A stretch of 59,664 nucleotides of DNA from Kiritimatiellia bacterium (lineage in GTDB: Bacteria > Verrucomicrobiota > Kiritimatiellia > RFP12 > UBA1067). How positions within the stretch are numbered: the first letter of the stretch is position 1; every line of letters begins with the position of its first letter. Position numbers and translations under genes: made by a program. Shown here in pieces: positions 3,311-25,261 of the stretch. A model generated the notes under the pieces. The model was not told where the DNA came from, did no database searches, and saw only the letters and a list, made by a program, of their open reading frames with translations. The stretch is taken from assembly GCA_016284515.1 (NCBI GenBank), contig JAEEOY010000088.1:1-59664 (forward strand), given 5' to 3'.

Positions 3311-3358
3311 GCGCGACGCCAGTTCTGCTGTTGCATCGCGACAGTGAACCGTAAAACC

Positions 3359-3439: not shown

Positions 3440-3457
3440 GCCCGCCACCTGCCTCGG

Positions 3458-5698: not shown

Positions 5699-7015
5699 AT
5701 GAACAAACTGGCGATTGCTCTAAACAAGACGCTTGCCGACGCTGCGGGATTCCTCTCCCCCGCCGGCAGGAGAATGTATTTTCCGTACGGCGGCATCCTC
5801 GGCCAGGGCGCGGAGGCTAAGACCTGCGACATCAACGCCACGGTCGGCATGGCGTTCGAGGAGGACGGTTCCCCTCTGGTGATGGACTGCTTCAAGACGG
5901 GAGTGAACCTCGACAAGAAGGCGTTCCTCTATGCGGGCAGCTTCGGGCTTCCCGCCCTGCGAAAGGCCTGGAAGGAGATGGAGTTCGTGAAGAATCCGTC
6001 CCTCAAGGGCAAGCGCTTCTCCTCTCCAGTCGTCACGAACGCGCTGACGCACGGCATCCGCGTGTGCGCCGAGCTTTTCGCGGGTCCGTCCGACACGCTC
6101 GTCTGCCCCGACCTCTACTGGGACAACTACGAGCTCATCTTCCAGGAGGCGGTCGGCTGCAAGGTCGTCCACTTTAACACCTTCAGGCGCGGCGCATTCG
6201 ACGCGGCGGCGATGAAGGAGGCGCTTCTCGCCCCCGGCGCGAAGAAGATACTCATCCTCAACTTCCCCAACAACCCGACGGGCTACACGGCGACGCTCGA
6301 GGACGCGAAGAAGATCGTCGCGGCCGTGCGCGCCGCCGCGTCGAAGGGCAAGCGGATCGTCGTCATATGCGACGACGCCTACTTCGGGCTCGTGTACGAG
6401 AAGGGCGTCCACGGAGAGTCGATGTTCTCCGAGTTTGCGGACCTTCACAGGAACGTTCTCGCCGTCAAGCTCGACGGCACGACGAAGGAGGACTACGTCT
6501 GGGGTCTCCGCGTCGGGTTCGTCAGCTTCGCATTCAAGGGCGCGACTGAGGATCAGCTCAAGGCGCTTGAGGCGAAGGCCGCCGGCAACGTGCGCTCGGG
6601 CATCTCCAACGCGACGGCGATCGGGCAGCATCTCGCGATACGCGCGTTCGCCGACCCAGGGTATGTCTCGCAGAAGCGCGAGAAGTTCGCGGTCCTGAAG
6701 AAGCGCTACCACGAGATACGCGTCATCCTCAAGACGCATCCGGAGTACGCGAAGCACTTCGAGGCGATGCCGTTCAACTCGGGCTACTTCATGTGCGTGA
6801 AGCCCATCGGCGTGGAAGCTGAGAAGGTGCGCCGCCATCTGATAGAGAAGTACTCCGTAGGCACGATCGTCCTTTCGGGGCTCATCCGACTCGCGTTCTC
6901 GACCGTCCCGACCGCACGTCTGGGCAAACTCTTCGCGTCCGTTGACGCGGCGATCGCCGACCTCGTCGGCGAAACCACGAAAACCAAAACCTCCAAGAGG
7001 AGAAAAGCGAAATGA
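5699..7015 (+). CDS. PLP-dependent aminotransferase class I/II
   Basis: LNFPNNPTGY, DDAYFGL, KLDGTTKE (PLP Lys), WGLRVGF. Confidence 0.92.
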   Translation: MNKLAIALNKTLADAAGFLSPAGRRMYFPYGGILGQGAEAKTCDINATVGMAFEEDGSPLVMDCFKTGVNLDKKAFLYAGSFGLPALRKAWKEMEFVKNPSLKGKRFSSPVVTNALTHGIRVCAELFAGPSDTLVCPDLYWDNYELIFQEAVGCKVVHFNTFRRGAFDAAAMKEALLAPGAKKILILNFPNNPTGYTATLEDAKKIVAAVRAAASKGKRIVVICDDAYFGLVYEKGVHGESMFSEFADLHRNVLAVKLDGTTKEDYVWGLRVGFVSFAFKGATEDQLKALEAKAAGNVRSGISNATAIGQHLAIRAFADPGYVSQKREKFAVLKKRYHEIRVILKTHPEYAKHFEAMPFNSGYFMCVKPIGVEAEKVRRHLIEKYSVGTIVLSGLIRLAFSTVPTARLGKLFASVDAAIADLVGETTKTKTSKRRKAK

Positions 7016-13282: not shown

Positions 13283-13340
13283 AACATGCAGAAAATGTAT
13301 CTACACGATCTACACGATCTACACGTTCTACACGGCTAAA
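13279..13340. repeat. Family B inverted 9-mer element (GTAGAACAT... / TCTACACGN x4, ending in CTAAA)
   Basis: gtagaacat gcagaaaat gta, then tctacacga tctacacga tctacacgt tctacacgg ctaaa; opposite arm also at 59404-59434. Confidence 0.85.
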
Positions 13341-13358: not shown

Positions 13359-15404
13359 ATGAAAAACTCTTTTTTACCGCTTTATGTCACCAACTTCTTC
13401 GGGACGCTGAACGACAACTTCCTGAAGACGCTGGCGTGCCTGACCGTCATCGGATGGATTGCCGACGAGCGCGTGCGGTCGCTCCTGACGAGTGTTGTCG
13501 CGGGAATGCTCGTCCTGCCCTACATTCTCTGTTCGCCGCTTGCCGACCGGCTGACCGCCGTGTGGCCGAAGCGTCGGATCGTACGCGCGGCGAAATGGGC
13601 GGAACTTCCGATCATGGCCGTTGCGATTGCGGGCTTCGCGCTCCACTCACCGTGGTTCGTCATCGGCGCGGTTCTCCTGATGGGGCTTCAAAGCTCGCTC
13701 TACTCGCCCGCCAAGTACGCGCTTGTGCGCGACATCGGCGGCGCGGAGAGAATCTCGACCGGCATGGGCGGCATGGAGGGCGTCTCGTTTCTCGGCGTGC
13801 TGCTCGGCACTGTGGCGGGTGGCCTTGTGGCCGACCTTCAAGTCCGCCATTCCGAGTGGAATCTCGCCTACTGCTGCCTTGCGACATTCGCCGTGCTCGG
13901 CCTTGCGGCGAGCTACACAGTCAGGGCGAAAGAGGAGCTCAACCGCTCTTTCCACGCCATCAACCCGATTCGCTATATTGCCCGTGCCTACCGAATGGCC
14001 GGTCGCTACGACGGGCTCAATGCCGTCATCTTCACGCTCTCCGTCTTCTGGTGGGGCGCGGCGATGCTCCAGATGGGACTTCTCGTCTACGGCAAGTCGA
14101 AAGTCGGGCTAAACTTGAGCGACACCGGCACGGGGGTACTCCTTTGCGGCGCTGCCGTTGGCATCGTCGCCGGGCAGGTCATCGCCGGCTTTGTCGACAA
14201 ACGTCGCTTCCTTCTCGGCGCGACGCTCTTGACCGGCTGGATCGCCGCGGCGCTTTTTGCCGTTCTCTACTTCGTGCCGCTTTCGCCGACGGCGTTCGGC
14301 GTGGTGCTGGGGCTTCTTGCCTTCGATCTCGGCTTTTTCAAGCTGCCGTTCGACGCCGAGATACAGAAGGTCGTGAAGGGACCGAAGCTCAACACGATGC
14401 TTGCCTACTTCAACCAAGTGTCGTTTCTCTTCATGCTCGCGGCGAGCGGATGCTACGCGCTCGTGAGCTGGGCGTTCGGGCCGAAGGCGTTTCTCCTCTT
14501 GCTCGCGGTCGTCTTTCTCGTAGCGCCGTTCCTCTTCGTGTTCTGTTACCGCTCGGTTCTGCTGTGCGTCGGCCGCTGGGTCTTTGCCTGGAGATACAAG
14601 GTTGAGGTCGAGGATAAGACAGGATTAACAGGATTGACAGGATTAAGAGCTGGGGGAGATCCCCAGACCCCCGAAAATCTTGTTAATCCTGTAAATCCTG
14701 TCAAGAAAACATCGCTCCTCGTCTTGCCGAATCATCCGGCGATGGTGGACCCGATGCTCGTGGGCGTAACGTTCTGGAAGACGCCGCTTAAGCCGCTTTC
14801 AGACGAACTCTTCTTCCACACCGGCATCGTCGCTCCGCGCGTTTTGAAGACACTTGGCGCGGTGGCTGTTCCCGATCTTCGCAAGCACCGCACGGCGAAG
14901 GGCGCGACAATCGCGCGGGGTCTTGGCGACATCGTGAAGTCGACGCTTGAAGACGGCGGGAACGTCATCTTTTATCCCTCGGGGCACATCCAGACCGAGG
15001 GCGAGCAGGAAGACATCGGCACGCGCCAGCTCGCGTACAACATGTGCGGCGATCTGCCCGAGGGGGTGCGCGTCATTGGCGTCAGAACGCGCGGACTCTG
15101 GGGGTCGATCTGGTCGCGCAAGGGGCGCAAGAATTCGCCCTCGTTTGTGCCGACTTTCATCAAGAGCGTATTCCTGTGGTTCTTCTGGTCGCCGTTCGTC
15201 CCGCGCCGCCGCGTGACGATGCACATCGAGGACCTGACCGACCGCGTGAAGGAGTGGTCGAAGCTTACGCGGCTCGAGTTCAACCGAAAGCTGGAGGAGT
15301 GGTACAACGACGAACCACAGACCAACGCAGACGTGCCGTCGCTAACGCTCGGCCAAAATAACGCAAGCGTTAGCGCAGCGTTGTCTGCGAAAGTCTGTGG
15401 TTAA
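13359..15404 (+). CDS. MFS (LplT-like) transporter fused to a PlsC-like acyltransferase domain (Aas-like)
   Basis: TNFFGTLNDNFLK, LYSPAKYALV, ~12 TM helices; acyltransferase NHPAMVDP and FYPSG. Carries repeat-derived peptides at 14618-14702 and at the C-terminus. Confidence 0.85.
   Translation: MKNSFLPLYVTNFFGTLNDNFLKTLACLTVIGWIADERVRSLLTSVVAGMLVLPYILCSPLADRLTAVWPKRRIVRAAKWAELPIMAVAIAGFALHSPWFVIGAVLLMGLQSSLYSPAKYALVRDIGGAERISTGMGGMEGVSFLGVLLGTVAGGLVADLQVRHSEWNLAYCCLATFAVLGLAASYTVRAKEELNRSFHAINPIRYIARAYRMAGRYDGLNAVIFTLSVFWWGAAMLQMGLLVYGKSKVGLNLSDTGTGVLLCGAAVGIVAGQVIAGFVDKRRFLLGATLLTGWIAAALFAVLYFVPLSPTAFGVVLGLLAFDLGFFKLPFDAEIQKVVKGPKLNTMLAYFNQVSFLFMLAASGCYALVSWAFGPKAFLLLLAVVFLVAPFLFVFCYRSVLLCVGRWVFAWRYKVEVEDKTGLTGLTGLRAGGDPQTPENLVNPVNPVKKTSLLVLPNHPAMVDPMLVGVTFWKTPLKPLSDELFFHTGIVAPRVLKTLGAVAVPDLRKHRTAKGATIARGLGDIVKSTLEDGGNVIFYPSGHIQTEGEQEDIGTRQLAYNMCGDLPEGVRVIGVRTRGLWGSIWSRKGRKNSPSFVPTFIKSVFLWFFWSPFVPRRRVTMHIEDLTDRVKEWSKLTRLEFNRKLEEWYNDEPQTNADVPSLTLGQNNASVSAALSAKVCG
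14618..14702. repeat. Family A inverted element (ACAGGATTA x3 ... AATCCTGTN x3) inserted in frame in the CDS
   Basis: gacaggattaacaggattgacaggatt-N29-aatcttgttaatcctgtaaatcctgtc; translates as TGLTGLTGL...LVNPVNPV. Confidence 0.95.
15313..15402. repeat. Family C hairpin element copy 1 (forms the C-terminus of the Aas-like gene)
   Basis: Terminal IR AACCACAGAC/GTCTGTGGTT; inner IR CGCTAACGCT/AGCGTTAGCG; the final T begins the TAA stop. Confidence 0.95.
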
Positions 15405-15428
15405 AAACGAAGGATGATGAGATGAAAG

Positions 15429-15524
15429 AACCGCAGACGAACGCAGACGTGCCGTCGCTAACGCTCGGCAGAGATAAAGGAGGCGCAAGCGTAAGCGCAG
15501 CGCAGTCTGCGAAAGTCTGTGGTT
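15429..15524. repeat. Family C hairpin element copy 2 (also a 34-aa mini-ORF, 15422-15526)
   Basis: Near-identical to copies 1 and 3; ORF MKEPQTNADVPSLTLGRDKGGASVSAAQSAKVCG*. Confidence 0.95.
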
Positions 15525-15550
15525 AAACAATAAGCAAAAGGAGACAAGCT

Positions 15551-16027
15551 ATGGTAACAAAGGAAGAAACAGGTAAGATAATTGGCGTATGCATGGATGT
15601 GTTCCATGAACTTGGTTCAGGATTTCTGGAGCCTGTATACCAGGACGCGGCCGAGATAGCCTTCAGGCAGGCTGGCATTCCCTTTGTTCGCGAGGCGCAA
15701 TGTCCGATTTATTTCCGAGGTGTGAAGATCAATCGGAATTATGAGGCGGATTTTGTTTGCTATGGAGAAGTGATTCTTGAGTTCAAGGCGGTGAAGTGCT
15801 TTGCGCCGGAGCACAAGGCGCAGTTGATCAATTATCTCAAGGCGACACGCATTCCTCTTGGGTATCTCATCAACTTTCACGGTGAGAGGCTGATTTGGGA
15901 GCGCATCGTCTACACTTCGGCAGAGAGTAAACCGCAGACGAACGCAGACGGGCCTTCGCTAACGCTCGGCCAGGATAAAAAAGGCGCAAGCGTTAGCGCG
16001 GCGCAGTCTGCGAAAGTCTGTGGTTAA
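15551..16027 (+). CDS. GxxExxY protein (PD-(D/E)XK-like nuclease, PDDEXK_3), copy 1, with repeat-derived C-terminal tail
   Basis: GFLEPVY motif; YEADFVCYGEVILEFKAV; LLNYLKAT-like QLINYLKAT; GYLINF. Confidence 0.95.
   Translation: MVTKEETGKIIGVCMDVFHELGSGFLEPVYQDAAEIAFRQAGIPFVREAQCPIYFRGVKINRNYEADFVCYGEVILEFKAVKCFAPEHKAQLINYLKATRIPLGYLINFHGERLIWERIVYTSAESKPQTNADGPSLTLGQDKKGASVSAAQSAKVCG
15930..16025. repeat. Family C hairpin element copy 3 (3' end of GxxExxY copy 1)
   Basis: aaccgcagacgaacgcagac...gtctgcgaaagtctgtggtt(aa). Confidence 0.95.
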
Positions 16028-16070
16028 AAACGCAAAGAGGTATTAACAGGATTAAGAAAGGAGCGGAAGC

Positions 16071-17264
16071 ATGAATGTCAACAGAGTGTATGCCGAGGCG
16101 ATAGCGAAATGGGAAGGCGCCAAATCCTGGAGTGGCGACAAGGCGACAAAGCCGTTTGCCGTTCTGTGGGATGATCCGGAAAGCGGCGCGGACTTGAAGG
16201 TCGTGTACAGGACGCCGAAGGAAGAGGGCGTATCCCTGCTCCTGCTTGGGTTCGCGACATGTGTCGTCTTGGCGGCGATTACCGCTCTCCTTTGTCGTGC
16301 CTTTCAGCCAATGTGCGCCATCTTGATAGGCGTACCGCTAATCTTGGCTTTTGCTGTCATCGTGGTGGTTCGCGCCATGCGCCTTGGATGGGTTCGCATG
16401 GAGTATGAGTTCAGGCGAGGAATCGCCACCGTGCGCTATTCAATGGCGGAACACTGGAAGCGTGAGTGGTCGTTCCCCTACAACGACAGGACGAGGCTCT
16501 TCTCCCGCCTGCGGCCGTTCGCCTGTGGGTTCGTCATATCGGAATACGGATTTGTGGATGAGGCGGGCAGCGTCCTGTTTCGCACAAAGCAGGCGATGGA
16601 GCTTCCTCACTACGACTACTTCTCGCTTGTCGTGACGGGTTATCTTTCGCGCGACGAAGACGAAGATAAGTCCGCACGGGATATTGCGGAAAAGTATCGT
16701 GAATGCACTTTGCGTGACAAATCGCTGTCGAGAAAGTGGTGGGCTTTCGTTGTTGTTTCCGCTACGATTGTAATCGCCATGCAATTCATTGACAGCTGTA
16801 GAAAGCCGACAAAGGAAGAAGATCGTGTGCAGAAGGTGATATATGAGGCGTTCCTCAACGGCGGCGACTATCTGGCGGTTGCCGAGGCACAGAAGGCCAA
16901 GTGCGGCAATCGCGCGCAGAAGGGGATAGACGAGGTGTTGGATTACTGTGCGGAATTCTCGGCGGCGCGGCAAGAGCTGAAGGATGCGGGGGCGATTGAG
17001 GACGCTCGCAGTCGCCGTGAAGTGGCGCAGGGAGTAGCTTCAAGATTGCGCGAACGGGTAAAGGCGATGGAAGCCGTCAGACGCAGAAGCGTTGCCAATT
17101 ATGTCTTTGCCCATTCCTTCGAGGATCTGGTTGGGGTGGCCGAATCACTGCGTTCCGCTCCAGACGGCAAGGTAATCGTAATCATAAACGAGAACATGAA
17201 AACCATCATAAACGAGAACATGAAAACCGCCGCGCCGCAACAATCATCGGAGGAAACGAAATGA
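16071..17264 (+). CDS. Hypothetical membrane protein
   Basis: RBS AAAGGAG; three hydrophobic segments; lower GC than core genes. Confidence 0.75.
   Translation: MNVNRVYAEAIAKWEGAKSWSGDKATKPFAVLWDDPESGADLKVVYRTPKEEGVSLLLLGFATCVVLAAITALLCRAFQPMCAILIGVPLILAFAVIVVVRAMRLGWVRMEYEFRRGIATVRYSMAEHWKREWSFPYNDRTRLFSRLRPFACGFVISEYGFVDEAGSVLFRTKQAMELPHYDYFSLVVTGYLSRDEDEDKSARDIAEKYRECTLRDKSLSRKWWAFVVVSATIVIAMQFIDSCRKPTKEEDRVQKVIYEAFLNGGDYLAVAEAQKAKCGNRAQKGIDEVLDYCAEFSAARQELKDAGAIEDARSRREVAQGVASRLRERVKAMEAVRRRSVANYVFAHSFEDLVGVAESLRSAPDGKVIVIINENMKTIINENMKTAAPQQSSEETK
17181..17228 (+). repeat. 24-bp tandem duplication (IINENMKT x2)
   Basis: atcataaacgagaacatgaaaacc twice. Confidence 0.9.
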
Positions 17265-17308
17265 ATGCTCGGCTGATGTTTGCGCGGTGTGTCGCGGGAA
17301 GGTTTCTA

Positions 17309-17756
17309 GACAGGATTAACATGATTAACAGGATTAAGAATGATGAATATAGATGAATTATGCTATAAGGTCATTGGGGCTGCGATGGCAGTGCATCGGC
17401 ACTTTGGCCCCGGATACCTCGAGGAGGTGTATAAAAACGCCTTGATAGTGGAGTTGACGGCGCTTGGTATTCACACAGAAAAAGAAGTTCCCATTGCGGT
17501 TAACTACAAAGGCATTCGCGTGGGAGATTATAGGGCCGATGTAATAGTTGATAATCGACTCATTCTAGAATTGAAAGCTGTAACGAATATCAACCCAAGT
17601 CATGAGGCCCAGGTTGTGAACTATCTTAATGCGACTGGAATAGAGGATGGGCTCTTGATCAATTTTGGAGCGCACTCTCTTCAGCACAAACACAAATACC
17701 GTGTGTATCGCCAGCCGCAGGCTCTTAATCCTGTCAATCCTGTAAATCCTGTCTAA
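17309..17756 (+). mobile_element. Putative element: family A inverted arms enclosing GxxExxY copy 2
   Basis: Left arm 17309-17336 (GACAGGATTAACATGATTAACAGGATT); right arm 17727-17753 plus TAA. Mobility is inferred only. Confidence 0.55.
17340..17756 (+). CDS. GxxExxY protein (PD-(D/E)XK-like nuclease, PDDEXK_3), copy 2
   Basis: GYLEEVY motif; YRADVIVDNRLILELKAV; QVVNYLNAT; GLLINFG; ends in arm-encoded NPVNPVNPV*. Confidence 0.96.
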   Translation: MMNIDELCYKVIGAAMAVHRHFGPGYLEEVYKNALIVELTALGIHTEKEVPIAVNYKGIRVGDYRADVIVDNRLILELKAVTNINPSHEAQVVNYLNATGIEDGLLINFGAHSLQHKHKYRVYRQPQALNPVNPVNPV

Positions 17757-17826
17757 AAAACAAAAGGGAGAAGTAGAGATGAATATGCGAAAGAGATTTG
17801 CTCTGGGTAACGCGGGAAGGTTTTTA

Positions 17827-17902
17827 GACAGGATTAACAAGATTAACAGGATTATGAGAAGAGGATGGAAGTCTTAATCTTGTGAATCCTGTAAATCCTG
17901 TC
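17827..17902. repeat. Family A element, empty (about 22-bp loop)
   Basis: Left arm 17827-17853; right arm 17876-17902 followed by TAAA. Confidence 0.95.
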
Positions 17903-17928
17903 TAAAGCAGAAAAGGAAGGAAGCAGAA

Positions 17929-18132
17929 ATGATCAACGGAATGACATGGGGAATCTACTATCTGATTCTGTTTGCAGTTTCGTTTGCAGGCTGCCTTGGG
18001 TGGGCTTTGAAACTGATTCGCGGCAACAAGCAGGGGCGTGCGGTAATGGTGATGCTGCTGGGTCCGTTTTGCTTCGCCTCTGTAGTCTGGGTTGCAACAT
18101 TGATCGTCGTGCTTTGCATGTATGGTATTTAG
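17929..18132 (+). CDS. Small hypothetical membrane protein (67 aa, 2 TM)
   Basis: RBS AAGGAAGG; two hydrophobic helices; AT-richer. Confidence 0.65.
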   Translation: MINGMTWGIYYLILFAVSFAGCLGWALKLIRGNKQGRAVMVMLLGPFCFASVVWVATLIVVLCMYGI

Positions 18133-18160
18133 CCACAAAGAACACAAAGGTCACAAAGAG
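18131..18160 (+). repeat. CACAAAG 9-mer repeat arm
   Basis: agccacaaagaacacaaaggtcacaaagag, directly after the stop codon. Confidence 0.75.
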
Positions 18161-18197
18161 GAGCGGAGAAATGGAAATGAACGCGGGAAGGTTTTTA

Positions 18198-18434
18198 GAC
18201 AGGATTAACATGATTAACAGGATTTTAGCATGGAGAACAGGAGATACAGAAGATAGGGTTTTTGGCATGGAGAACAGGGGAAGCAGGAGGAAAACTGGGG
18301 TTGCCGCACCCTGCATTGACCCGCCTGCGGCGCTCGCTTCGCTCGGGGGATACCCAGCCCCCGCCGAAGGCGGACCTAAACTCTCCTGCATCTCTTGCTC
18401 TACCTGCTTAAAAAACAATCCTGTAAAACCTGTC
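18198..18434. repeat. Family A element with nested CAGGAG/CTCCTGC inverted arms
   Basis: Outer A arms; inner arms acaggaga.../ctcctgcatctcttgctctacctgcttaaa; near-identical to 19409-19607 apart from a ~40-bp insert. Confidence 0.92.
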
Positions 18435-18459
18435 TAAACAAAGACAAGGAGAAAGTGAA

Positions 18460-19311
18460 ATGAAACGAGTGATGGTTATGCTTGTGATTGTTGTGACCTG
18501 TCTGGCACAGCAGGGGTGTTATACGACCGTTGATCGCAAATGGCAATATTATGCATCAACAAAGTGGCTTTGGGAGAAGCGTCAATCTGGGCCTGGTGCC
18601 TGGTTTCCTGAAGTGCAGACCACTGGCGAGGGTATGTATCTTGTGGGATGTTTCATACCTGTGGTTGGCTGGGTTACGCTTTGCCCCGCTGGATTAGCGT
18701 TAGGTGTTGTTGAACGGTGTGTCGTAGCACCTGTGTTTGACACTGTTTGCCTTCCCATTGACTACATCAACAATGTGAATTATCGGATTGATGAAAAGCA
18801 CTTTAAGATTTTCGAGGACCGTCTTGATTCCGATTTGGATGCTGTTCTTGCGGATTCAATGTATTGGTCAGATCGGACAGATGACAAGTTCTGCTATTTG
18901 AGTCGGTGGCTTTCGCAAAACGGAGATAAGGTTGAATTGACGTCGAAACGTGTATCTGCGATACTATCACTTCTTGGGTGGTATGCAAAAGAAAGGAGGT
19001 GCCTGGATGATGAAATGTGGTCAATTTACCTGGAGATATTGAGGGTTATATACTACGATAAATCCTGCGAACGTGAAACGCTGACGGCATTGGCGAATTG
19101 GTTTGTTGAAATGAAGAATTCCACCAGAGTGTATGTGGATAGTTTTTTCCATGCTGGAATTTATCTCAGTCGTGAGGACTGGGTGAAGTTCACTGATGAA
19201 CAGTTGAAGGTTCTTCTGGATGCCGATATCATGAGTCTGGAGATAACGAGAGTTCTCAAGATACGCCAGGAAAAACGCGAAAAGGAAGCCAATGGGCAAA
19301 CCGTGGACTGA
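18460..19311 (+). CDS. Putative lipoprotein (N-terminus weakly YceK/YidQ-like), low GC
   Basis: Lipobox-like LAQQGC; PVFDTVCLPIDY; 23/60 G+C in line 18781-18840. Confidence 0.65.
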   Translation: MKRVMVMLVIVVTCLAQQGCYTTVDRKWQYYASTKWLWEKRQSGPGAWFPEVQTTGEGMYLVGCFIPVVGWVTLCPAGLALGVVERCVVAPVFDTVCLPIDYINNVNYRIDEKHFKIFEDRLDSDLDAVLADSMYWSDRTDDKFCYLSRWLSQNGDKVELTSKRVSAILSLLGWYAKERRCLDDEMWSIYLEILRVIYYDKSCERETLTALANWFVEMKNSTRVYVDSFFHAGIYLSREDWVKFTDEQLKVLLDADIMSLEITRVLKIRQEKREKEANGQTVD

Positions 19312-19408
19312 AGACTTCAAGTGTGAGTCAAAGTGCAAAAAGAGGAAAGGAGCAAACTTATGAATATGCGAAGAGGATTTGCTGCAGCTGCCGCGGGAAG
19401 GTTTTTTA

Positions 19409-19607
19409 GACAGGATTAACATGATTAACAGGATTTTTGCATGGAGAACAGGAGATGCAGAAGATGGTTTTTGGCTTGGAGAACAGGAGAGGCAGGAGGA
19501 AGACTGGGGTAGCCATCCCAGACCCCGCCGAAGGCGGACCTAAACTCTCCTGCATCTCCTGCTCTACCTGCTTAAAAAACAATCTTGTCAATCCTGTAAA
19601 TCCTGTC
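19409..19607. repeat. Family A element with nested CAGGAG/CTCCTGC arms (second copy)
   Basis: Left arm 19409-19435; right arm 19581-19607 followed by TAAAAAA. Confidence 0.95.
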
Positions 19608-19646
19608 TAAAAAAACAACTGGAACGAATTTCAAGGAGGAACAACA

Positions 19647-22085
19647 ATGAAAAGAATGATGTTTGCAGCTATGGTCGCCGCGGCGGCGTTTGCGCCGCTT
19701 GCGGGGCGGGCGGATGAGAGCCGCCTCAACCTCTGGCCGCTTGTCGGCTACGAAGATGGCGCGCTGGACGTCATCTGGCCGCTCGGACACTTCAAGGATT
19801 CGGACGAGTGGCGGTTCTTCCCCGTCATCATGGACCACGACCTCTTCTGCGTCTTCCCCGAGTTCTGGTTCATGGACGACGGTTTCGCCGTCCTGCCGTT
19901 CTACGCGAAGTACGACTTCAGGGAGGGCACGCTCTTCCCCGTGCTCTGGTGGGACCTCGCGGGCTCCGACAAGATGCACAGCGTCTTCCCGCTCTACTAC
20001 TACCATGGGCGCGAGAATGCGACGACCTTCTGGGCGGGCTGCGGACTTGCGGGCTACAAGCGCTACAACGACGAGACTTCCCACTGGCTTCTGCCGCTCT
20101 ACATGCGCACGGGGAGCGGATTCTACTCCATCCCGTACTCAAGGACGTCTCATTCCACGAGCAGGGACGAGGCGTATCTCTGCGGCTTCGCGGGGCGGAA
20201 GACCGCCCAGGACGGCACGACGTACGCGCACTGGTGCTTTCCGCTCTGGCACAAGGACCAGAACAGCTTCACTTCGCTGCCGTACCACCGCGAATGGGAC
20301 GACAAGGGGGAGACGACGTCATGGCTCTCCGTCCTTGCGCTCTCCGGCGGCTGGCGGGACCGTCCCTACTGGAAGGAGCGCTATCTCCTCGGCCTCGCCG
20401 GACGCAACAGGAACGACAAGAACGGATACAGCGACTCCTGGCTCGCGCCGTTCTACTACGCGGACAACCAGGGCACGCTCGTCACGCCCGTCTACGGTCA
20501 GGCCAAGACGGCGAAGTGGGGGCTTCCCGGGTGGTACACGGACGACCATACGTTCGCCTCTCCGCTCTGGTATAGCCATACGGACGACCAGAACCGCCTC
20601 GACCAGTGGATGGTTCCGCTCCTCCTGTCGGGCGGCGTCTACCGCGACGGCGTGCGCCGAAACGGCTTTCTCCTGAACGTCGCGGGCTGGATGTCGGGCG
20701 ACGACGGCTATTTCGCCTCGTGGTGCATGCCGCTCTACTTCAAGGACAGCGAGGGCACGTTCATCACGCCGCTCTACGGACGCAACAAGTCCTCGCAGTG
20801 GTGCTTCCCGCTCTGGTACAACGACGAGCGGTCGCTGTATTCCCTCCTCTGGTGCCAGAGGAAGGACGAAGCGGGCGAGCTCGAGTCGTGGGTGGCGCCG
20901 CTTCTCCTATCCGGCGGAAGGACGAAAAGCGACGGTACGCGCGAATCGGACATCCTCCTCGGACTCGGCGGCGCGACGTGGGGCGGCAAGGACGGCCTGC
21001 GCTCGAGCTGGGCGTTTCCGTTCTACTACGAGAACAGCGCGGGCGCGTTCGTGACGCCGCTCGGCGGCTGGAACCGGGACTCGAGCTGGATTCTGCCGCT
21101 TTTCTACACCGACAAGGAAGCCTTCGTCTCGCTCCCGTACATGCATGGCCGCAGCGAGTCCAAGAAGTCGGACACCTATGTCGTGCCGCCGCTTCTCTCG
21201 GGCTACACGAAGCACGACGACGGCCGCACGGACCTGTGCGCGCTCGTCCTGTACGGACACAGCCGCGGTGCGCAGGGCGAGACGCGCTACGACTACCTGC
21301 TGCCGCTCTACCACTACAACGGCGAGACGGGCGACTTCATCTCGCTCCCCTACGGCCGCGACGTGCGGGGCTCCTATACCAACACCTGGTGGGCGACGCC
21401 GCTCGTGGGCTTGCGCTCCGGGTCGAAGACGGGCGGCTGGCTGTTTCCGCTCTTAAACCGCCGGAAGGACGCCTCCTTCGACAAGGACCTTGCGCGGATG
21501 GATTCGCCTACGATCCCGGACGACATCACGTTCTCGGATCAGGTGAAGTGCTGGACGAACGGCGAGGGGAGGGTGTGCTTCCGCACGAACTGCATTGCCT
21601 CGGCCCGGATCGACTCCGAGGCGCGCGGCTCGGTGCTGCTGGCGTCCGACCACGACCATTGGGTCTATAGCGGCGTCTCCTGCGGGGAGAAGGAGTATAC
21701 GCTGCACGAGGGCTCCAAGCAGGGCAACCGCATTTTCTTCAACAGCGAGTCCTCGCGTACGGTGACGTACGACATCCCTTCGCGCCGGAAGAAGGGCGAG
21801 AGGTCCGACTCCGAGACGATGGCGCTCTGCGGACTCTTCTACAGCGAGCACAGGGAAGACTCGATGAAGGGTACGTCGCATACGCATACGCGCGTCCTCT
21901 GGAAGCTCTGGGACCGCGAGGAGCGCGACGGCAACGTGACGGTCGATGCCTTCCCGGGCTTCACCTACGACTCGAAGAAGAACGGCTATTCGAAGACCTC
22001 GTTCCTCTGGCGGTTCTTCCGCTACGAGAACGATCCCGAGAAGGGGAAGAAAGTCGACCTCTTCTTCATCCCCGTGTGGAGGTGA
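19647..22085 (+). CDS. Secreted aromatic-rich repeat protein of unknown function
   Basis: Signal peptide; recurrent W/F-x-x-P-L/F-Y motifs, e.g. SWLAPFYYADNQGTLVTPVYG, SWCMPLYFKDSEGTFITPLYG, SWAFPFYYENSAGAFVTPLGG. Confidence 0.85.
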   Translation: MKRMMFAAMVAAAAFAPLAGRADESRLNLWPLVGYEDGALDVIWPLGHFKDSDEWRFFPVIMDHDLFCVFPEFWFMDDGFAVLPFYAKYDFREGTLFPVLWWDLAGSDKMHSVFPLYYYHGRENATTFWAGCGLAGYKRYNDETSHWLLPLYMRTGSGFYSIPYSRTSHSTSRDEAYLCGFAGRKTAQDGTTYAHWCFPLWHKDQNSFTSLPYHREWDDKGETTSWLSVLALSGGWRDRPYWKERYLLGLAGRNRNDKNGYSDSWLAPFYYADNQGTLVTPVYGQAKTAKWGLPGWYTDDHTFASPLWYSHTDDQNRLDQWMVPLLLSGGVYRDGVRRNGFLLNVAGWMSGDDGYFASWCMPLYFKDSEGTFITPLYGRNKSSQWCFPLWYNDERSLYSLLWCQRKDEAGELESWVAPLLLSGGRTKSDGTRESDILLGLGGATWGGKDGLRSSWAFPFYYENSAGAFVTPLGGWNRDSSWILPLFYTDKEAFVSLPYMHGRSESKKSDTYVVPPLLSGYTKHDDGRTDLCALVLYGHSRGAQGETRYDYLLPLYHYNGETGDFISLPYGRDVRGSYTNTWWATPLVGLRSGSKTGGWLFPLLNRRKDASFDKDLARMDSPTIPDDITFSDQVKCWTNGEGRVCFRTNCIASARIDSEARGSVLLASDHDHWVYSGVSCGEKEYTLHEGSKQGNRIFFNSESSRTVTYDIPSRRKKGERSDSETMALCGLFYSEHREDSMKGTSHTHTRVLWKLWDREERDGNVTVDAFPGFTYDSKKNGYSKTSFLWRFFRYENDPEKGKKVDLFFIPVWR

Positions 22086-22105
22086 CAGCAAAGGAAAATG
22101 TGAAA

Positions 22106-22217
22106 ATGTGCAATTATCCAATATCCAGTATCCATTATCCAATATGCTGTATCCAGTATCCGATGATGGCGGAGAGATGTTGAGTATTGGCTATTGGATA
22201 TTGGATATTTGCACATT
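22106..22217. repeat. Inverted 7-mer (TATCCAN / TATTGGA) hairpin element, empty
   Basis: aatgtgcaa + tatccaa tatccag tatccat tatccaa ... tattgga tattgga tatt + tgcacatt. Confidence 0.85.
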
Positions 22218-23191: not shown

Positions 23192-25261
23192 ATGGGAATA
23201 GTAGTGATTGGCGTATTGGCCGTGCTCAGCGTTCCGATCATGCTGATTGTGGCTCTCGTTAAGCTGTCCTGGATAGAAGACCAGCTGTCGTCGCTCTGCA
23301 AGAAGATCGAGATAGCCGATGTCTCCAGAAATCTCAAGTCCGTGCCAAAGCCGGCCGCGCCGGTAAAAGACAATGCGGAGGAAACCGAAATGAAGAATCG
23401 AATTGAGAAGCAGGAAATGACTGGGGGAAGCGGCGTCTCGCCGCTTCAGGAAAGAGGAAATGTCATTGTTGTAGAGAAGCGCCGGGACGGCGCTTCCCCC
23501 AGTCAGGAAGAGGATGTTTACGAGAAGCGCCGGGACGGCGCTTCCCCCAGTCAGGAAGAGGATGTTTACGAGAAGCGGCGGGACGGCGCTTCCCCCAGTC
23601 AGAATGACGATTCATATGAGCCGACGGCGCTCGACATCTTCTGGATGCGCGTCGAGGACTGGTTCGCCGTGCGCGGCGACTTCGCGCCGAAGGGGATGAC
23701 GCACGAATTCGCCTTCGCGACGCGCTGGCTCGTGCGCGTAGGCGTGGCGCTGATCGTTGGCGCGATCATCTACTTCGTGAAGCTGTCGATCGACCGCGGA
23801 TGGATGGGTCCGACGGGACGCGTCGTCGCGACGCTCGCCTGTGGCGCGGCATTCAGCGTCGGCGGCTCGTGGCTCGTGAAGAAGGAGAGGTACTCGCTTC
23901 TCGGACACGCCATCGCCGCGCTCGGAGTCGTTGCGCTGTACCTCGGTTTCGGACTCGGACACCGCTTCTTCGATCCACCCGTGATCGCGTCGCCCGTGAT
24001 CGCGTTCTGCGCGCTCGCGGCGGTGACGTTCTGCGCAGGCGTGATGTCCGTCTACCTCCGTTCGCCCTACATCGCGGTGATGGGACTCGTCGGCGGATAT
24101 CTCGTCCCGGTGATCGCAGGTCGCGACAGCGGATTCCCGCTCTGGTTGGATGCGTATCTCCTCGTCCTGAACCTCGGCGCGTTCTACGTCGCGCGGATGC
24201 GCAGGTGGTCCGCGCTCGACTTCCTCGCGTCGATGCTTGCGTTCGCGATGTGCTGCATCTGGGGCGCGCGGCATCCGGAATTCGGCGGACGCGCCGCAGT
24301 GCTCGTCAACTTCGCGTTCCTCTCGGCCGTCCACGCGCTCTACATGACGAGCGTCATGGTCGGCTCGAGGATGCGCAGCGAGTCCGAGGACGCCATCGCG
24401 TGGGCCGGGCTCTCCGTCAACGCATGCTGCTATTTCGGATGGCTCGCGTGGGTCTTCCGCGCCGGATTCGCCGACCGCGCTACGGGGGTTGTGCTGCTCG
24501 CGCTCGTCGCCGCGTATTTTGCCGTCGCGTATCTCGCGACAAAGCGCGGTTGGGCGGACCGCGCGACCGTTGGCATACTCGTGGTCTTCGCGCTTACGTA
24601 TCTGTCCATCGTGCCGCTCCTGCTGTTCAGCCGTCCGTGGTGCGTCGTCTCTTGGTCCGTCCTCGCCGTCGCGACGGCGGAGGCCGAGTCGCGCAGCCGT
24701 CAGCGCATTCTCGGCATCGCCTCGTTTCTGCTTCTCGCGGCCGCGGCGTGGTCGGGCATTCTTTACTACGCGCCCCTCGCGTACTGCCAGCGCTCGGTCT
24801 ATGCGCTGACGGCGCTTTCCGGAGGGGAGTATTTCGTCGAGTTCGCGCTGCGGCTCGTGCGGCTCTGGACTCTTCCCGCGGCGGCCGTGTTTGTCGCGCG
24901 GCGACTCAGGGTCGACGCGCTTGCCATCGCCGCGCTCATCGTCGCGTTCCTATTCTTCACGGGGGAGGCGCGCAACTTCGGATACGTCTTCTTCCCGTCG
25001 CTCAAGACGGGTATGGTGTCCGTCGCGTGGCTGATTGCCGCGTTCGGCGGACTCTGGGCGGGCATCGTCTTCCGCAGCCGCCTGTCGCGCATCTGTTCGC
25101 TCTCGCTTCTCGGCGTCTCCGTCGCTAAGGTGCTCGTCATCGACACCGCGCACCTCACGACTCCGGTCCGCGTCGCGCTCTTCGCGCTCTCCGGCGTCCT
25201 CCTCATCGTCGGCGCGTTCCTCTACATGAAGTTCAGGGAAAGGTTCGAAGACAATGCGTAA
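23192..25261 (+). CDS. DUF2339 family multi-pass membrane protein
   Basis: EFAFATRWLVRVG, IYFVKLSID, GWMGPTGRV; C-terminal KVLVIDTAHL...RVALF; REP-derived linker. Confidence 0.85.
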   Translation: MGIVVIGVLAVLSVPIMLIVALVKLSWIEDQLSSLCKKIEIADVSRNLKSVPKPAAPVKDNAEETEMKNRIEKQEMTGGSGVSPLQERGNVIVVEKRRDGASPSQEEDVYEKRRDGASPSQEEDVYEKRRDGASPSQNDDSYEPTALDIFWMRVEDWFAVRGDFAPKGMTHEFAFATRWLVRVGVALIVGAIIYFVKLSIDRGWMGPTGRVVATLACGAAFSVGGSWLVKKERYSLLGHAIAALGVVALYLGFGLGHRFFDPPVIASPVIAFCALAAVTFCAGVMSVYLRSPYIAVMGLVGGYLVPVIAGRDSGFPLWLDAYLLVLNLGAFYVARMRRWSALDFLASMLAFAMCCIWGARHPEFGGRAAVLVNFAFLSAVHALYMTSVMVGSRMRSESEDAIAWAGLSVNACCYFGWLAWVFRAGFADRATGVVLLALVAAYFAVAYLATKRGWADRATVGILVVFALTYLSIVPLLLFSRPWCVVSWSVLAVATAEAESRSRQRILGIASFLLLAAAAWSGILYYAPLAYCQRSVYALTALSGGEYFVEFALRLVRLWTLPAAAVFVARRLRVDALAIAALIVAFLFFTGEARNFGYVFFPSLKTGMVSVAWLIAAFGGLWAGIVFRSRLSRICSLSLLGVSVAKVLVIDTAHLTTPVRVALFALSGVLLIVGAFLYMKFRERFEDNA
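23419..23600. repeat. Four 29-bp REP-like palindromes in frame within the DUF2339 gene (1 forward, 3 reverse at a 48-bp period)
   Basis: GACTGGGGGAAGCGGCGTCTCGCCGCTTC at 23419; reverse-type copies at 23476, 23524, 23572; identical intergenic copy at 59454-59482. Confidence 0.93.

What the first reader, a model, noticed from the sequence alone, without database searches (positions are those of the whole stretch)
17294..19610. One repeat family in full, empty and nested (Russian-doll) states, like an autonomous element and its MITE-like derivatives
SEEN: the same ~30-bp terminal inverted arms (TTTAGACAGGATTAAC... / ...AATCCTGTCTAAA) enclose (i) the entire GxxExxY-2 gene (17309-17756), (ii) only ~22 bp (17827-17902), and (iii) twice, a second inverted family (CAGGAG/CTCCTGC) with its own TTAAA end (18198-18434, 19409-19607). 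All four left arms are preceded by CGCGGGAAGGTTT. The two nested copies are near-identical direct repeats bracketing one low-GC lipoprotein gene. INFERENCE: a GxxExxY-carrying element with non-autonomous derivatives; the constant upstream motif could be a target or cleavage site.
Basis: partly seen in the sequence, partly recalled or inferred. Interest (0 to 1): 0.8.

Follow-up and report, generated by a model that had tools for sequence, protein, structure and literature searches.

The report
Hairpin repeat elements carrying nuclease gene
A Kiritimatiellia chromosome carries a family of hairpin-forming DNA repeats that either are empty, hold other hairpins, or hold a small nuclease gene (GxxExxY); the same repeats turn up in many phyla and come and go between close relatives, so they look like a poorly known kind of selfish mobile element related in design to the 'intervening sequences' of ribosomal RNA genes.

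Summary
Each arm is three tandem 9-mers (GACAGGATT-type). The arm pairs enclose the GxxExxY-2 gene, a 14-22 nt loop, or a second and third layer of hairpins. I found a fifth copy, in frame inside an LplT/Aas-like gene (14616-14705).

It is not a local duplication artefact.
- The same hairpin occurs in at least 12 phyla, usually empty and twice with a GxxExxY gene built in the same way.
- 37 of 67 unrelated GxxExxY genes sit between inverted tandem-repeat arms, against 0 of 198 shifted control positions.
- Arm family tracks nuclease clade.
- Close relatives have empty alleles at the same sites.
- Synteny breakpoints fall on arm edges.

The 'constant upstream motif' is not a target. It encodes ...AGRF of a short leader ORF that belongs to the lineage's repeat unit, and it is absent elsewhere. 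I found no target-site duplication and no transposase.

Best reading: these are palindromic selfish elements built like 23S rRNA intervening sequences and behaving like REPIN/RAYT systems. Their own PD-(D/E)XK nuclease probably acts on its cognate arms, with copies spreading by break repair or recombination. That the nuclease drives mobility is inferred, not shown. I rate it a new variant of a known kind.

The parts
14616..14705 (+). Fifth copy of the ACAGGATT hairpin, in frame inside the LplT/Aas-like ORF (13359-15404). It is translated as DKTGLTGLTGLRAGGDPQTPENLVNPVNPVKK.
   Evidence: RNA fold -48.9 kcal/mol, z -9.3. Orthologues without it read VEIDGLKSVAQDKPLLV.
17261..17356 (+). Leader ORF 1 (MNARLMFARCVAGRFLDRINMINRIKNDEYR). 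Its start overlaps the stop of the 397-aa gene (ATGA), it reads through the left arm, and it stops 11-14 nt past the GxxExxY start. It contains CGCGGGAAGGTTT (17293-17305).
   Evidence: Conserved leader peptides precede hairpins in L122, L124, L125 and L127.
17303..17339 (+). Left arm of the full element: TTTCTAGACAGGATT AACATGATT AACAGGATT AAGA. Its last AGGA serves as the Shine-Dalgarno sequence for GxxExxY-2.
   Evidence: (I2/I3).
17340..17756 (+). GxxExxY-2, a 138-aa PD-(D/E)XK nuclease with D67, E77 and K79 intact. The last 12-14 residues (NPVNPVNPV) and the stop codon lie in the right arm.
   Evidence: AlphaFold2 pLDDT 89 with a disordered tail at 125-138. Foldseek best hits are Cas4, lambda exonuclease and AddAB/AdnAB nuclease domains.
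17722..17759 (+). Right arm of the full element: CTCTTAATCCTGTC AATCCTGTA AATCCTGTC TAAAAA.
   Evidence: (I2).
17779..17877 (+). Leader ORF 2 (MNMRKRFALGNAGRFLDRINKINRIMRRGWKS) in the 61-nt spacer. It reads into the empty hairpin.
   Evidence: (D4/D5).
17821..17906 (+). Empty hairpin: arms 17823-17857 and 17872-17906, with a 14-22 nt loop.
   Evidence: I5. Fold -34.7 kcal/mol, z -6.3. Orthologous copy before the 67-aa ORF in L122, L124 and L127.
17929..18132 (+). 67-aa membrane ORF, a resident gene rather than part of the repeat. It is present between hairpins in L122, L124 and L127.
18132..18160 (+). Solo arm of another 9-mer family (CACAAAG x3).
   Evidence: The same module lies upstream of leader plus hairpin in L125 and L127.
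18171..18437 (+). Leader ORF 3 (MEMNAGRFLDRIN...). It stays open through the whole nested hairpin and stops at GTC TAA of the right arm.
18192..18441 (+). Nested hairpin C. Outer ACAGGATT arms at 18192-18224 and 18417-18441. Inner GCAGGAGA-type arms at 18228-18252, 18265-18289 and 18383-18407. Central CTGGGG..CCCAG hairpin with an extra 45-nt apex block.
18460..19311 (+). 283-aa ORF with a signal peptide and low GC, bracketed by the two nested hairpins. It is a cassette-like cargo, not part of the repeat.
   Evidence: No family hit. A 279-aa homologue sits in another context in L125.
19360..19419 (+). Leader ORF 4 (MNMRRGFAAAAAGRFFRQD). One extra T shifts the frame, and it stops in the left arm.
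   Evidence: (D5).
19402..19614 (+). Nested hairpin D. Outer arms at 19402-19438 and 19578-19614, inner arms at 19434-19464 and 19546-19576, and two small central hairpins.
   Evidence: I3/I4 and I13. Fold -93.9 kcal/mol, z -8.2.
15313..16027 (+). Second cognate pair in the same genome. GxxExxY-1 (15551-16027) is flanked by three hairpins of a different family (CCACAGAC/CGCAGAC; 15313-15402, 15429-15524, 15930-16025). The first hairpin supplies the C-terminal 28 residues and the stop codon of the LplT/Aas-like ORF.

Best explanation
These are palindromic, hairpin-forming selfish DNA elements of one family. Each arm is an array of three 9-bp iterons (core ACAGGATT). The full form carries, in the loop, a promoterless gene for a minimal RecB/Cas4-like PD-(D/E)XK nuclease (GxxExxY). 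That gene borrows its Shine-Dalgarno sequence from the left arm, its stop codon from the right arm, and its transcription (and partly its translation, through overlapping leader ORFs) from the host operon. The empty and nested forms are ORF-less relatives of the same element. They sit just after stop codons, between cistrons, or in frame in tolerant linkers. They do not terminate transcription, because the T-run is 5' and the A-run 3' of the stem. Inferred mechanism: the nuclease, probably as a dimer, recognises its cognate iteron arms and breaks DNA at or near the hairpin. Repair from another copy (homing-like gene conversion or recombination, not DDE transposition) then copies hairpins and the ORF. 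The same process creates nests at hairpin apices and shuffles, duplicates or deletes the genes lying between hairpins. Shown here: the anatomy, the wide distribution, presence/absence polymorphism, the clade-specific link between nuclease and arms, and breakpoints at the arms. Inferred: nuclease specificity for the arms, and that the nuclease drives spread.
For: (1) Arms: 9 hits against 0 expected; strong folds.
(2) At least 120 genome stretches carry the exact 17 specified bases, and about 80 of them have a partner arm within 130 nt. Taxa include Verrucomicrobiota/Kiritimatiellia, Acidobacteriota, Chloroflexota, Bacteroidota, Desulfobacterota, Pseudomonadota (including the isolate Thioalkalivibrio denitrificans ALJD), Bacillota, Calditrichota, Armatimonadota, Planctomycetota and the archaeon Methanoperedens.
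(3) The only protein repeatedly enclosed by the arms is GxxExxY: L021 and L096, 48-51% aa identity to the window protein, with the same ...NPVNPV-stop read-out into the right arm.
(4) The 120 closest homologues (68-100% identity) almost all end in NPVNPV.
(5) 37 of 67 metagenomic GxxExxY genes have flanking inverted repeats scoring at least 14, against 0 of 198 shifted mock positions.
(6) Arm family co-varies with protein clade: 58.4% against 51.7% identity, 0 of 1000 permutations. Two different cognate pairs coexist in this window.
(7) Cultured isolates show the same layout: Prevotella nigrescens and Treponema saccharophilum.
(8) Empty alleles and alternative repeat families occupy the same two sites of the LplT/Aas gene among orthologues of 81-96% identity, and the two sites vary independently.
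(9) One empty/filled pair: L122 GGTATAAT|AAAACTCG against L125 with 0.9 kb of hairpins plus GxxExxY.
(10) The GxxExxY-2 module (17298-17912) is 86% identical to L124 and L125 copies that lie in another context. Synteny breaks fall at 17298, 17340, 17759, 17820, 17905-17912, 18140 and 19435, all arm edges.
(11) The element also sits in a polysaccharide operon in another relative.
(12) Catalytic D/E/K are conserved. Many homologues are tandem two-domain fusions, consistent with a dimer.
(13) No TSD, and no transposase or integrase among the window ORFs scanned.
Against: There is no biochemical or genetic evidence that GxxExxY binds or cuts the arms. The clade-arm co-variation could be simple co-inheritance. 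In this window all five copies lie within 5 kb, and much of their similarity (shared leader ORF and spacer) is explained by local duplication and recombination of leader-hairpin units. Only 2 of about 120 arm-bearing loci carry the gene, and I could not test whether every genome with the hairpins has a cognate nuclease. About 45% of GxxExxY genes showed no arms with my ungapped test. Arms of 30-40 bp are short for RecA-dependent homing. The test for RNA-level against DNA-level selection (G.U against A.C mismatches by strand) showed no bias either way.
Confidence: 0.5

Rival explanations
1. The hairpins are primarily RNA-level devices kept by the host, and GxxExxY is only a selfish or passenger ORF that lodges in their loops. 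As devices they could work as REP-like intercistronic stabilisers, as RNase III processing sites like 23S rRNA intervening sequences, or as translational-coupling modules with a leader peptide.
For: They lie inside one long co-directional transcription unit with no internal terminators, typically 5-25 nt after stop codons. A conserved leader ORF reads into the left arm. Stems are 8-bp segments interrupted by 1x1 mismatches, as long dsRNA stems often are. The Coxiella 23S IVS has the same design: a 28-bp inverted-repeat stem, an ORF in the loop and three tandem GACAGAT repeats before the ORF, and RNase III cuts it (PMC4990558). Correia elements are also cut by RNase III (PMC10969869).
Against: A host-function model does not explain why the exact 9-mer sequence, not just the structure, is kept across phyla and an archaeon. 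It does not explain why arm family tracks nuclease clade, why different families replace each other at one site in near-identical strains, or why copies occur in frame in coding sequence. There is no excess of G.U over A.C on the sense strand. By crude ORF calls, hairpins also lie between divergent and convergent genes.
Confidence: 0.2
2. They are classical MITEs mobilised in trans by an unlinked transposase (an IS with matching terminal inverted repeats), and GxxExxY is incidental cargo.
For: They have terminal inverted arms, small size, many insertion contexts and ORF-less copies far outnumbering ORF-bearing ones.
Against: No target-site duplication at 19 inspected copies. No transposase lies between arms in any of about 120 loci with loops up to 1.5 kb, whereas GxxExxY recurs. 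No transposase was found among the window ORFs scanned. The arm-GxxExxY link holds for many unrelated arm families, which is not expected for cargo.
Confidence: 0.12
3. The region is an integron-like cassette array. On this view the hairpins are recombination sites (attC-like) at which promoterless genes are inserted, excised and shuffled by a site-specific recombinase encoded elsewhere.
For: The island is low-GC (43-52% against 62-65%) and made of co-oriented small ORFs separated by hairpins. Gene content between TetR and DUF726 differs in every relative examined. The same 'left arm + GAAAGGAGCGGA[AG]GC-ATG' 5' module is joined to different genes. Breakpoints lie at arms. The 283-aa gene is flanked by two hairpin copies, as after cassette integration. 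An assembly variant lacks exactly one unit (372 bp).
Against: No integrase was found in the window ORFs scanned. The arms lack the attC core GTTRRRY. In other phyla the hairpins are mostly solitary, not in arrays. Shuffling is equally explained by homologous recombination between dispersed repeats.
Confidence: 0.1
4. It is a purely local tandem-duplication product with no mobility.
For: All five window copies lie within 5 kb. Four share the leader and CGCGGGAAGGTTT.
Against: The same arms occur in at least 12 phyla. The module sits in different contexts in relatives. There are empty alleles.
Confidence: 0.03

Closest known systems
ORF-containing intervening sequences (IVS) of 23S rRNA genes (Coxiella burnetii, Leptospira; PMC4990558)
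   Same: An element of about 0.4 kb bounded by inverted repeats of about 28 bp that form a stem, with a small ORF of about 14 kDa in the loop and a weak or borrowed Shine-Dalgarno sequence in the stem. Tandem short repeats lie next to the ORF; in Coxiella they are three GACAGAT heptamers, matching the core of the arms here (GACAGGATT) and of other GxxExxY arm families (ACAGAT, ACAGAATT). Origin and mobility are unknown, and the IVS is described as selfish.
   Different: IVSs sit in helix 25 or 45 of 23S rRNA and carry a four-helix-bundle S23p ORF. These elements sit in mRNA operons or in coding sequence and carry a PD-(D/E)XK nuclease. RNase III excision is shown for IVSs and untested here. 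No rRNA was found next to any GxxExxY locus fetched.
REPIN-RAYT systems (PMC3116915, PMC3337134)
   Same: Hairpin-forming inverted doublets of a short repeat are dispersed mostly between genes. One protein gene flanked by the same repeats is the presumed mobiliser, repeat family is matched to protein lineage, and ORF-less copies greatly outnumber the gene.
   Different: RAYT is an HUH/Y1 (IS200/IS605-type) transposase, whereas this protein is a PD-(D/E)XK nuclease. Arms here are 3 x 9-bp iterons rather than a single REP. The gene lies inside the hairpin loop. In-frame intragenic copies and multi-layer nests are common.
Bacterial MITEs: Correia elements and Rickettsia palindromic elements (PMC10969869)
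   Same: Small palindromic repeats co-transcribed with genes. RPEs insert in frame into protein-coding genes, as at 14616-14705 and in L272. Correia stems are RNase III substrates.
   Different: MITEs derive from DDE-type IS elements and make TSDs, and none was seen here. RPE and Correia have no associated nuclease gene and narrow host ranges.
Integron attC sites and cassette arrays (from general knowledge)
   Same: Imperfect palindromes separate promoterless, co-oriented, highly variable small genes.
   Different: No IntI, no GTTRRRY core. Outside this lineage the hairpins occur mostly singly.
PD-(D/E)XK homing endonucleases such as I-Ssp6803I (from general knowledge)
   Same: A small PD-(D/E)XK nuclease gene embedded in a selfish insertion. 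Spread is proposed to occur by cleavage of the ORF-less allele and repair from the ORF-bearing copy.
   Different: The host structure here is a DNA palindrome, not a self-splicing intron. The target would be a multi-copy repeat rather than a unique gene site. Homing is untested.

Membership tests
GxxExxY / PDDEXK_3 protein family (TIGR04256, PF13366) | Profile match above the curated cut-off | tested here: met
   142.5 bits against a cut-off of 35; 138.5 bits against 22.
GxxExxY / PDDEXK_3 protein family (TIGR04256, PF13366) | PD-(D/E)XK fold with the D...ExK catalytic triad | tested here: met
   D67, E77 and K79 are invariant or nearly invariant. The AlphaFold2 model has pLDDT 89. Foldseek hits Cas4, lambda exonuclease and AddAB nuclease domains.
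MITE | Terminal inverted repeats bounding a short non-coding element | tested here: met
MITE | Target-site duplication flanking the element | tested here: not met
   No direct repeat at 19 copies. One empty/filled pair has an ambiguous 4-bp TAAT overlap.
MITE | Parent autonomous IS that encodes a transposase and has the same inverted repeats | tested here: not met
   The only recurrent enclosed ORF is a PD-(D/E)XK nuclease. No transposase lies in arm-bounded segments or among the window ORFs scanned.
REPIN-RAYT | Inverted REP doublet forming a hairpin, in many copies | tested here: inconclusive
   The hairpin doublets are present. Copy number per genome could not be measured, because only loci of 8 kb or less were available.
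REPIN-RAYT | Associated HUH/Y1 (IS200/IS605-like) transposase flanked by the repeats | tested here: not met
   The associated protein is PF13366, not a Y1 transposase.
23S rRNA intervening sequence | Located in helix 25 or 45 of a 23S rRNA gene | tested here: not met
   The window has only a tRNA. No rRNA motifs were found in any fetched locus.
23S rRNA intervening sequence | Inverted-repeat stem, with or without an ORF in the loop | tested here: met
   compared with PMC4990558.
23S rRNA intervening sequence | Excision of the stem-loop by RNase III | not testable with these tools
   This needs RNA end-mapping in a carrier, with and without rnc.
Integron cassette array | IntI tyrosine recombinase and attI next to the array | tested here: not met
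   27 of 39 window ORFs were scanned against Pfam or NCBIfam, and none is an integrase. The rest of the genome was not seen.
Integron cassette array | attC with R''/L''-L'/R' boxes and a GTTRRRY core | tested here: not met
   The arm ends are TTTTAGAC/GTCTAAAA.
Known Rfam RNA family | Match at the gathering score | tested here: not met
   Only a tRNA passes. Sub-threshold hits are generic miRNA-precursor hairpins.
Known anti-phage defence protein (PADLOC) | Profile match | tested here: not met
   No hit for either GxxExxY or for the neighbouring genes.

The most novel reading that the evidence does not exclude
GxxExxY proteins (about 30,000 clusters at 50% identity, function unknown) are the element-encoded nucleases of a pan-prokaryotic superfamily of iteron-armed hairpin elements. 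Each nuclease clade recognises its own arm repeat and drives copying of hairpins and of itself by break-induced repair. The classical 23S rRNA intervening sequences, and many 'orphan' intergenic palindromes and in-frame repeat peptides (NPVNPV, TGLTGL, SAKSA and similar), would be members or relics of this superfamily. This would be a nuclease-based counterpart of REPIN-RAYT, and it would also act as a cassette-shuffling engine in operons.
Probability: 0.3. Interest if true: 0.9.

Novelty: new variant of a known kind. Interest (0 to 1): 0.75.

Why it matters
GxxExxY/PDDEXK_3 is a very large protein family: 12,146 representative clusters at E<=1e-10. It has essentially no literature; three papers mention the name, none about its function. 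Showing that these genes live inside clade-matched, iteron-armed hairpins would give the family a testable role.

It would also:
- explain a widespread class of intergenic palindromes and odd repeat peptides in predicted proteins of MAGs;
- offer a concrete hypothesis for the 35-year-old question of where 23S rRNA intervening sequences come from and how they move;
- identify a driver of operon-level gene shuffling and in-frame protein insertions.

Practically, these elements break short-read assemblies (most close homologues are on contigs under 2 kb) and create spurious C-terminal extensions in gene calls.

Tried and rejected
- Rfam at gathering and E-value thresholds returned nothing but a tRNA and generic miRNA-like hairpins.
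- A PDB sequence search with a GxxExxY profile gave no meaningful hit.
- PADLOC gave no hit.
- Plasmids: only 8 of 72,556 records encode a relative, so the family is not plasmid-borne as a rule.
- Viral contigs: 63 exact arm matches, but only 12 form hairpins and none carries GxxExxY, so phages are not obvious vectors.
- The strand test for RNA-level selection (G.U against A.C mismatches relative to flanking gene orientation) showed no bias. The gene orientation used was crude, so the result is inconclusive.
- The search for TSDs found none. Flanks are instead conserved parts of a larger repeat unit.
- The search for an independent copy of the inner (GCAGGAGA) family outside the two nested elements found none in any fetched locus. 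Nesting by insertion of a separate element is therefore not proven for this pair, although other families are nested in L060, L070, L012 and L113.
- The search for rRNA next to GxxExxY loci found none.
- The idea that empty loops are internal-deletion remnants of the ORF ends: by eye about 10-13 of 17 positions match, which is too weak to claim.
- The idea that TGGTATAAT is an insertion target: it occurs at two sites (L125/L124 after the 826-aa gene; L279/L280 at the end of the LplT/Aas gene) but not at the other 15 or more contexts. An 8-bp microhomology recombination is more likely.
- DNA of the GCA_016648615.1 variant contig could not be fetched.


Full report
**1. What is in the sequence**

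Reading 16800-20100 and running the repeat finder confirm the four arm pairs at the reported coordinates. Each arm is three tandem 9-mers: left GACAGGATT-AACAKGATT-AACAGGATT, right its imperfect complement (TRF period 9). The 27-nt pattern with up to 3 mismatches has 9 hits in the 59.7-kb window against 0.00 expected.

- Pair A (17303-17339 / 17722-17759) encloses a 138-aa ORF that is a clear GxxExxY/PDDEXK_3 protein.
- Pair B (17821-17906) is empty.
- Pairs C (18192-18441) and D (19402-19614) contain a second inverted family built on the same 9-nt plan, plus small central hairpins.
- D folds as one coaxial stem of -93.9 kcal/mol, z = -8.2. The shorter hairpins have z = -6.3 to -9.3.
- C and D are about 93% identical, but C has an extra 45-nt block exactly at the apex of the central hairpin and one 9-mer fewer in its right arm.
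- CGCGGGAAGGTTT precedes all four left arms.

**2.

- A fifth copy lies at 14616-14705, in frame in the linker between the MFS (LplT-like) and acyltransferase halves of a 681-aa ORF. It reads ...DKTGLTGLTGLRAGGDPQTPENLVNPVNPVKK....
- A second GxxExxY gene (15551-16027, 33-39% identical to the first) is flanked by three hairpins of another family (CCACAGAC/CGCAGAC). The first of these provides the last 28 codons and the stop of the 681-aa ORF.
- Further tandem-repeat hairpins or solo arms lie at 13297-13336, 18132-18160 and 22105-22217.
- The whole stretch 15350-19650 is a low-GC island, 43-52% against 62-65%. It lies inside one co-directional unit that starts at a promoter-like site at 12563 and has no convincing internal terminator.
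- The rest of the window is ordinary chromosome, with pheT, aroA, fucI, galK and dut. Homologue names place it in Kiritimatiellia.

**3. Anatomy of the full element**

The last AGGA of the left arm lies 6 nt before the ATG of GxxExxY-2. The ORF runs into the right arm, which contributes ...NPVNPVNPV and the stop codon (GTC TAA). In the AlphaFold2 model (pLDDT 89) that tail is disordered.

The catalytic D67/E77/K79 are conserved. The nearest solved folds are Cas4, lambda exonuclease and AddAB/AdnAB nuclease domains.

A short leader ORF starts on the stop codon of the upstream 397-aa gene (ATGA), reads through the left arm as ...AGRFLDRINMINRI, and ends just past the GxxExxY start. The element therefore has no promoter and is wired for translational coupling to host genes. 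This coupling is an inference from the layout.

**4. The 'constant upstream motif'**

Related leader peptides (M-N-[AM]-R-x-x-F-x-R-x-[VI]-A-G-R-F-L-D-R-I-N) precede most hairpins of this family in the relatives L122, L124, L125 and L127. CGCGGGAAGGTTT is simply the codons for ...AGRF.

The motif is absent at the 14616 copy. It is absent at orthologous hairpins in L122 (GCAAAGTG, GCAGAGGAG) and L124 (GTGAAGG), after several stop codons, and in all other phyla. It is part of a lineage-specific repeat unit, not a target or cleavage site.

**5. Distribution of the arms**

About 70 exact matches would be expected by chance in 1.2e12 positions. However, roughly 80 of the 120 have a partner arm within 130 nt, usually with three units per arm, which chance cannot produce.

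Hosts span Verrucomicrobiota/Kiritimatiellia, Acidobacteriota, Chloroflexota, Bacteroidota, Desulfobacterota, Pseudomonadota (including the isolate Thioalkalivibrio denitrificans ALJD), Bacillota, Calditrichota, Armatimonadota, Planctomycetota and the archaeon Methanoperedens.

- Stems often continue into flanks that differ between genomes but remain complementary, for example 13 nt in L043.
- Loops are short and unrelated to each other.
- In L060, L070, L012, L113 and L045 the loop is itself a hairpin of another tandem-repeat family, so 'Russian dolls' are a general habit.
- Among arm pairs up to 1.5 kb apart, the only recurrent enclosed protein is GxxExxY: L021 in Chthoniobacterales and L096. 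These are 48-51% identical to the window protein and have the same NPVNPV-stop read-out.

**6. Generality of the gene-arm link**

- The 120 closest homologues of GxxExxY-2 (68-100% identity) almost all end in NPVNPV.
- In 80 metagenomic loci with relatives of 43-82% identity, 37 of 67 testable genes have an inverted repeat scoring at least 14 between the 130 nt upstream and the stop region. This compares with 0 of 198 windows shifted by 0.8-1.9 kb in the same loci, and shuffle maxima of 12.5 or less.
- The arms are again tandem short repeats, in families such as ACAGGATT, ACAGAATT, CACGGATT, CGCAGATT, C[AG]CAGAC and GACATAA.
- Arm family follows the protein tree: same-family pairs are 58.4% identical against 51.7% for different families, with 0 of 1000 permutations reaching this difference.
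- Two different cognate pairs coexist in this one window.
- Isolates (Prevotella nigrescens, Treponema saccharophilum) show the same layout.
- The family is huge, with 30,665 representative clusters at E<=1e-3. Many members are tandem two-domain fusions, which suggests a dimeric enzyme.

**7. Evidence of movement in this lineage**

Among 120 orthologues of the LplT/Aas protein (81-96% identity), the commonest allele lacks the linker insert (VEIDGLKSVAQDKPLLV). Others carry the window-type insert, a longer version with an extra central module, or at least four other repeat families at the same place.

The 3' end of the gene is likewise either native (...EEWYNA(E)*) or fused to family 2, to an AAKNAKDAK family, or directly to an ACAGGATT left arm (...NVFRQD*). 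The two sites vary independently.

The GxxExxY-2 module (17298-17912) is 86% identical to copies in L124 and L125. Those copies lie after the 812/826-aa gene, not after the 397-aa gene. L122 has the empty site there: GGTATAAT|AAAACTCG against GGTATAAT|GCTTAAG...GTCTAAT|AAAACTCG.

- Blocks of synteny between the window and L122, L124, L125 and L127 end at 17298, 17340, 17759, 17820, 17905-17912, 18140 and 19435, all arm edges.
- Solo left arms fused to a conserved RBS (GAAAGGAGCGGA[AG]GC-ATG) precede different genes: the 397-aa gene here at about 16040, a 115-aa gene in L124 and L125, and others in L279 and L280.
- A relative carries the element in a polysaccharide operon, next to a gene with an in-frame QDLQDGQD insert.
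- At least 15 distinct left-flank contexts exist, typically just after stop codons.
- An NCBI assembly holds the same genes with 372 bp less, equal to one hairpin unit plus the 67-aa ORF. This is either a real deletion between direct repeats or a collapsed assembly.
- No TSD is visible.

**8. Mechanism**

Shown here:
- a hairpin element family with iteron arms;
- full, empty and nested states;
- very wide host range;
- gain and loss between close relatives, including in-frame copies;
- a clade-specific association with an apparently active PD-(D/E)XK nuclease;
- recombination breakpoints at the arms.

Inferred: the nuclease recognises its own arms and makes the breaks. Break repair or recombination, rather than DDE transposition, then spreads hairpins and the ORF, adds layers at hairpin apices, and shuffles the genes between hairpins. 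I give this 0.5.

The main rival (0.2) is that the hairpins are RNA-level devices, whether REP-like stabilisers or RNase III sites, and the nuclease gene merely lodges in them. My strand test could not separate DNA-level from RNA-level selection. The other rivals are a trans-acting transposase (0.12), an integron-like recombinase system (0.1) and pure local duplication (0.03, refuted).

**9. Comparison with known systems**

The closest design is the ORF-containing 23S rRNA intervening sequence. The Coxiella IVS is 428 nt with a 28-bp inverted-repeat stem, a small ORF in the loop, and three tandem GACAGAT repeats before the ORF. RNase III cuts it, and its origin and mobility are unresolved (PMC4990558). 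The heptamer core equals the core of the arms here.

The closest logic is REPIN-RAYT (PMC3116915, PMC3337134), but with a PD-(D/E)XK nuclease instead of a Y1 transposase. In-frame insertion recalls Rickettsia palindromic elements, and co-transcribed stems recall Correia elements (PMC10969869).

This element fails the defining tests for MITE (TSD, transposase), RAYT (HUH enzyme), IVS (rRNA location) and integron (IntI, attC core). I therefore file it as a new variant of a known kind, not as a member of any of them. Searches of the paper library for GxxExxY, PF13366, TIGR04256 and S23p found no description of this association. A description outside that library cannot be excluded.

Noticed in passing
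window 14616-14705 (and 120 orthologues, P0001-P0120): The linker of the LplT/Aas-like fusion protein is a hot spot. At least six different states occur in proteins 81-96% identical: empty, two ACAGGATT versions, and four or more other tandem-repeat families, all in frame.
   Followed up: yes
window 15313-15404: A family-2 hairpin replaces the native stop of the LplT/Aas-like gene and adds 28 residues (EPQTNAD...SAKVCG). Other relatives have other repeat-derived tails, so many annotated C-termini in this lineage are repeat read-through.
   Followed up: yes
window 13297-13336; L127 7263-7335: Four tandem ATCTACACG 9-mers lie between the TetR gene and the LplT/Aas gene as a solo arm. In L127 a related sequence forms a complete hairpin at the same kind of position.
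   Followed up: partly
window 22105-22217: A 113-nt hairpin of a 7-mer family (TATCCAG/TATTGGA) lies between the 812-aa gene and the DUF726 gene (-53.4 kcal/mol, z -7.3). In L124 and L125 the GxxExxY-2 module occupies this same intergenic site instead.
   Followed up: partly
window 23474-23602: A 48-bp tandem repeat (2.7 copies, 98% identical), each unit containing a GC-rich palindrome, lies in frame in the N-terminal linker of the DUF2339 membrane protein (EKRRDGASPSQEEDVY repeats). This N-terminal region does not align with L122.
   Followed up: no
window 3358-3440: An 83-nt near-perfect palindrome (CACCTCGCGAGGTACCCTATGCCTACCTCGCGAGGT...) lies between the fucose isomerase and GH2 genes. It belongs to a different repeat type.
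   Followed up: no
window 17181-17228: A perfect 24-bp tandem duplication (IINENMKT x2) lies at the 3' end of the 397-aa ORF, just before leader ORF 1.
   Followed up: no
GCA_016648615.1, 7986-bp contig (no DNA available): It has the same 397-aa fragment, GxxExxY-2, 283-aa, 812-aa and DUF726 genes, but 372 bp less between GxxExxY-2 and the 283-aa gene, meaning the 67-aa ORF unit is missing. This is either a deletion between direct hairpin repeats or an assembly collapse.
   Followed up: partly
L122 16033-16725; L124 14040-14435; L125 13228-13621; L279 2483-2822: Left arms (whole or truncated) fused to a conserved RBS precede unrelated small genes: a 150-aa unknown, a 115-aa membrane protein and a 97-130-aa secreted protein. 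Fic in L122 ends by reading into a left arm (..GKVFRQD*).
   Followed up: partly
L272 4411-4821 and L273 1127-1549: A cupin-like protein in a polysaccharide operon carries an in-frame ACAGGATT-type insert (GQDLQDGQD), which is longer in a second strain. It lies right next to a GxxExxY element whose stop overlaps the next gene's ATG.
   Followed up: partly
P0241-P0390: About a quarter of the best GxxExxY representatives are 250-295 aa with two matched stretches. These are tandem-fused double domains, which hints that the single-domain protein works as a dimer.
   Followed up: no
L009 (Thioalkalivibrio denitrificans ALJD) 2870-3189 and 6329-6513: An isolate genome has multi-layer hairpins built from several ACAGGAT-type units (outer ACAGGATG layers around an inner ACAGGATT hairpin), twice within 8 kb.
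   Followed up: no
L122, L124, L125, L127 and L280 between the TetR and DUF726 genes: Gene content of this operon differs in every relative examined (Fic, Sel1, DUF2157/GDYXXLXY duplicates, hydrolases, many small unknown ORFs). It is a hypervariable cassette-like region in otherwise syntenic chromosomes.
   Followed up: partly
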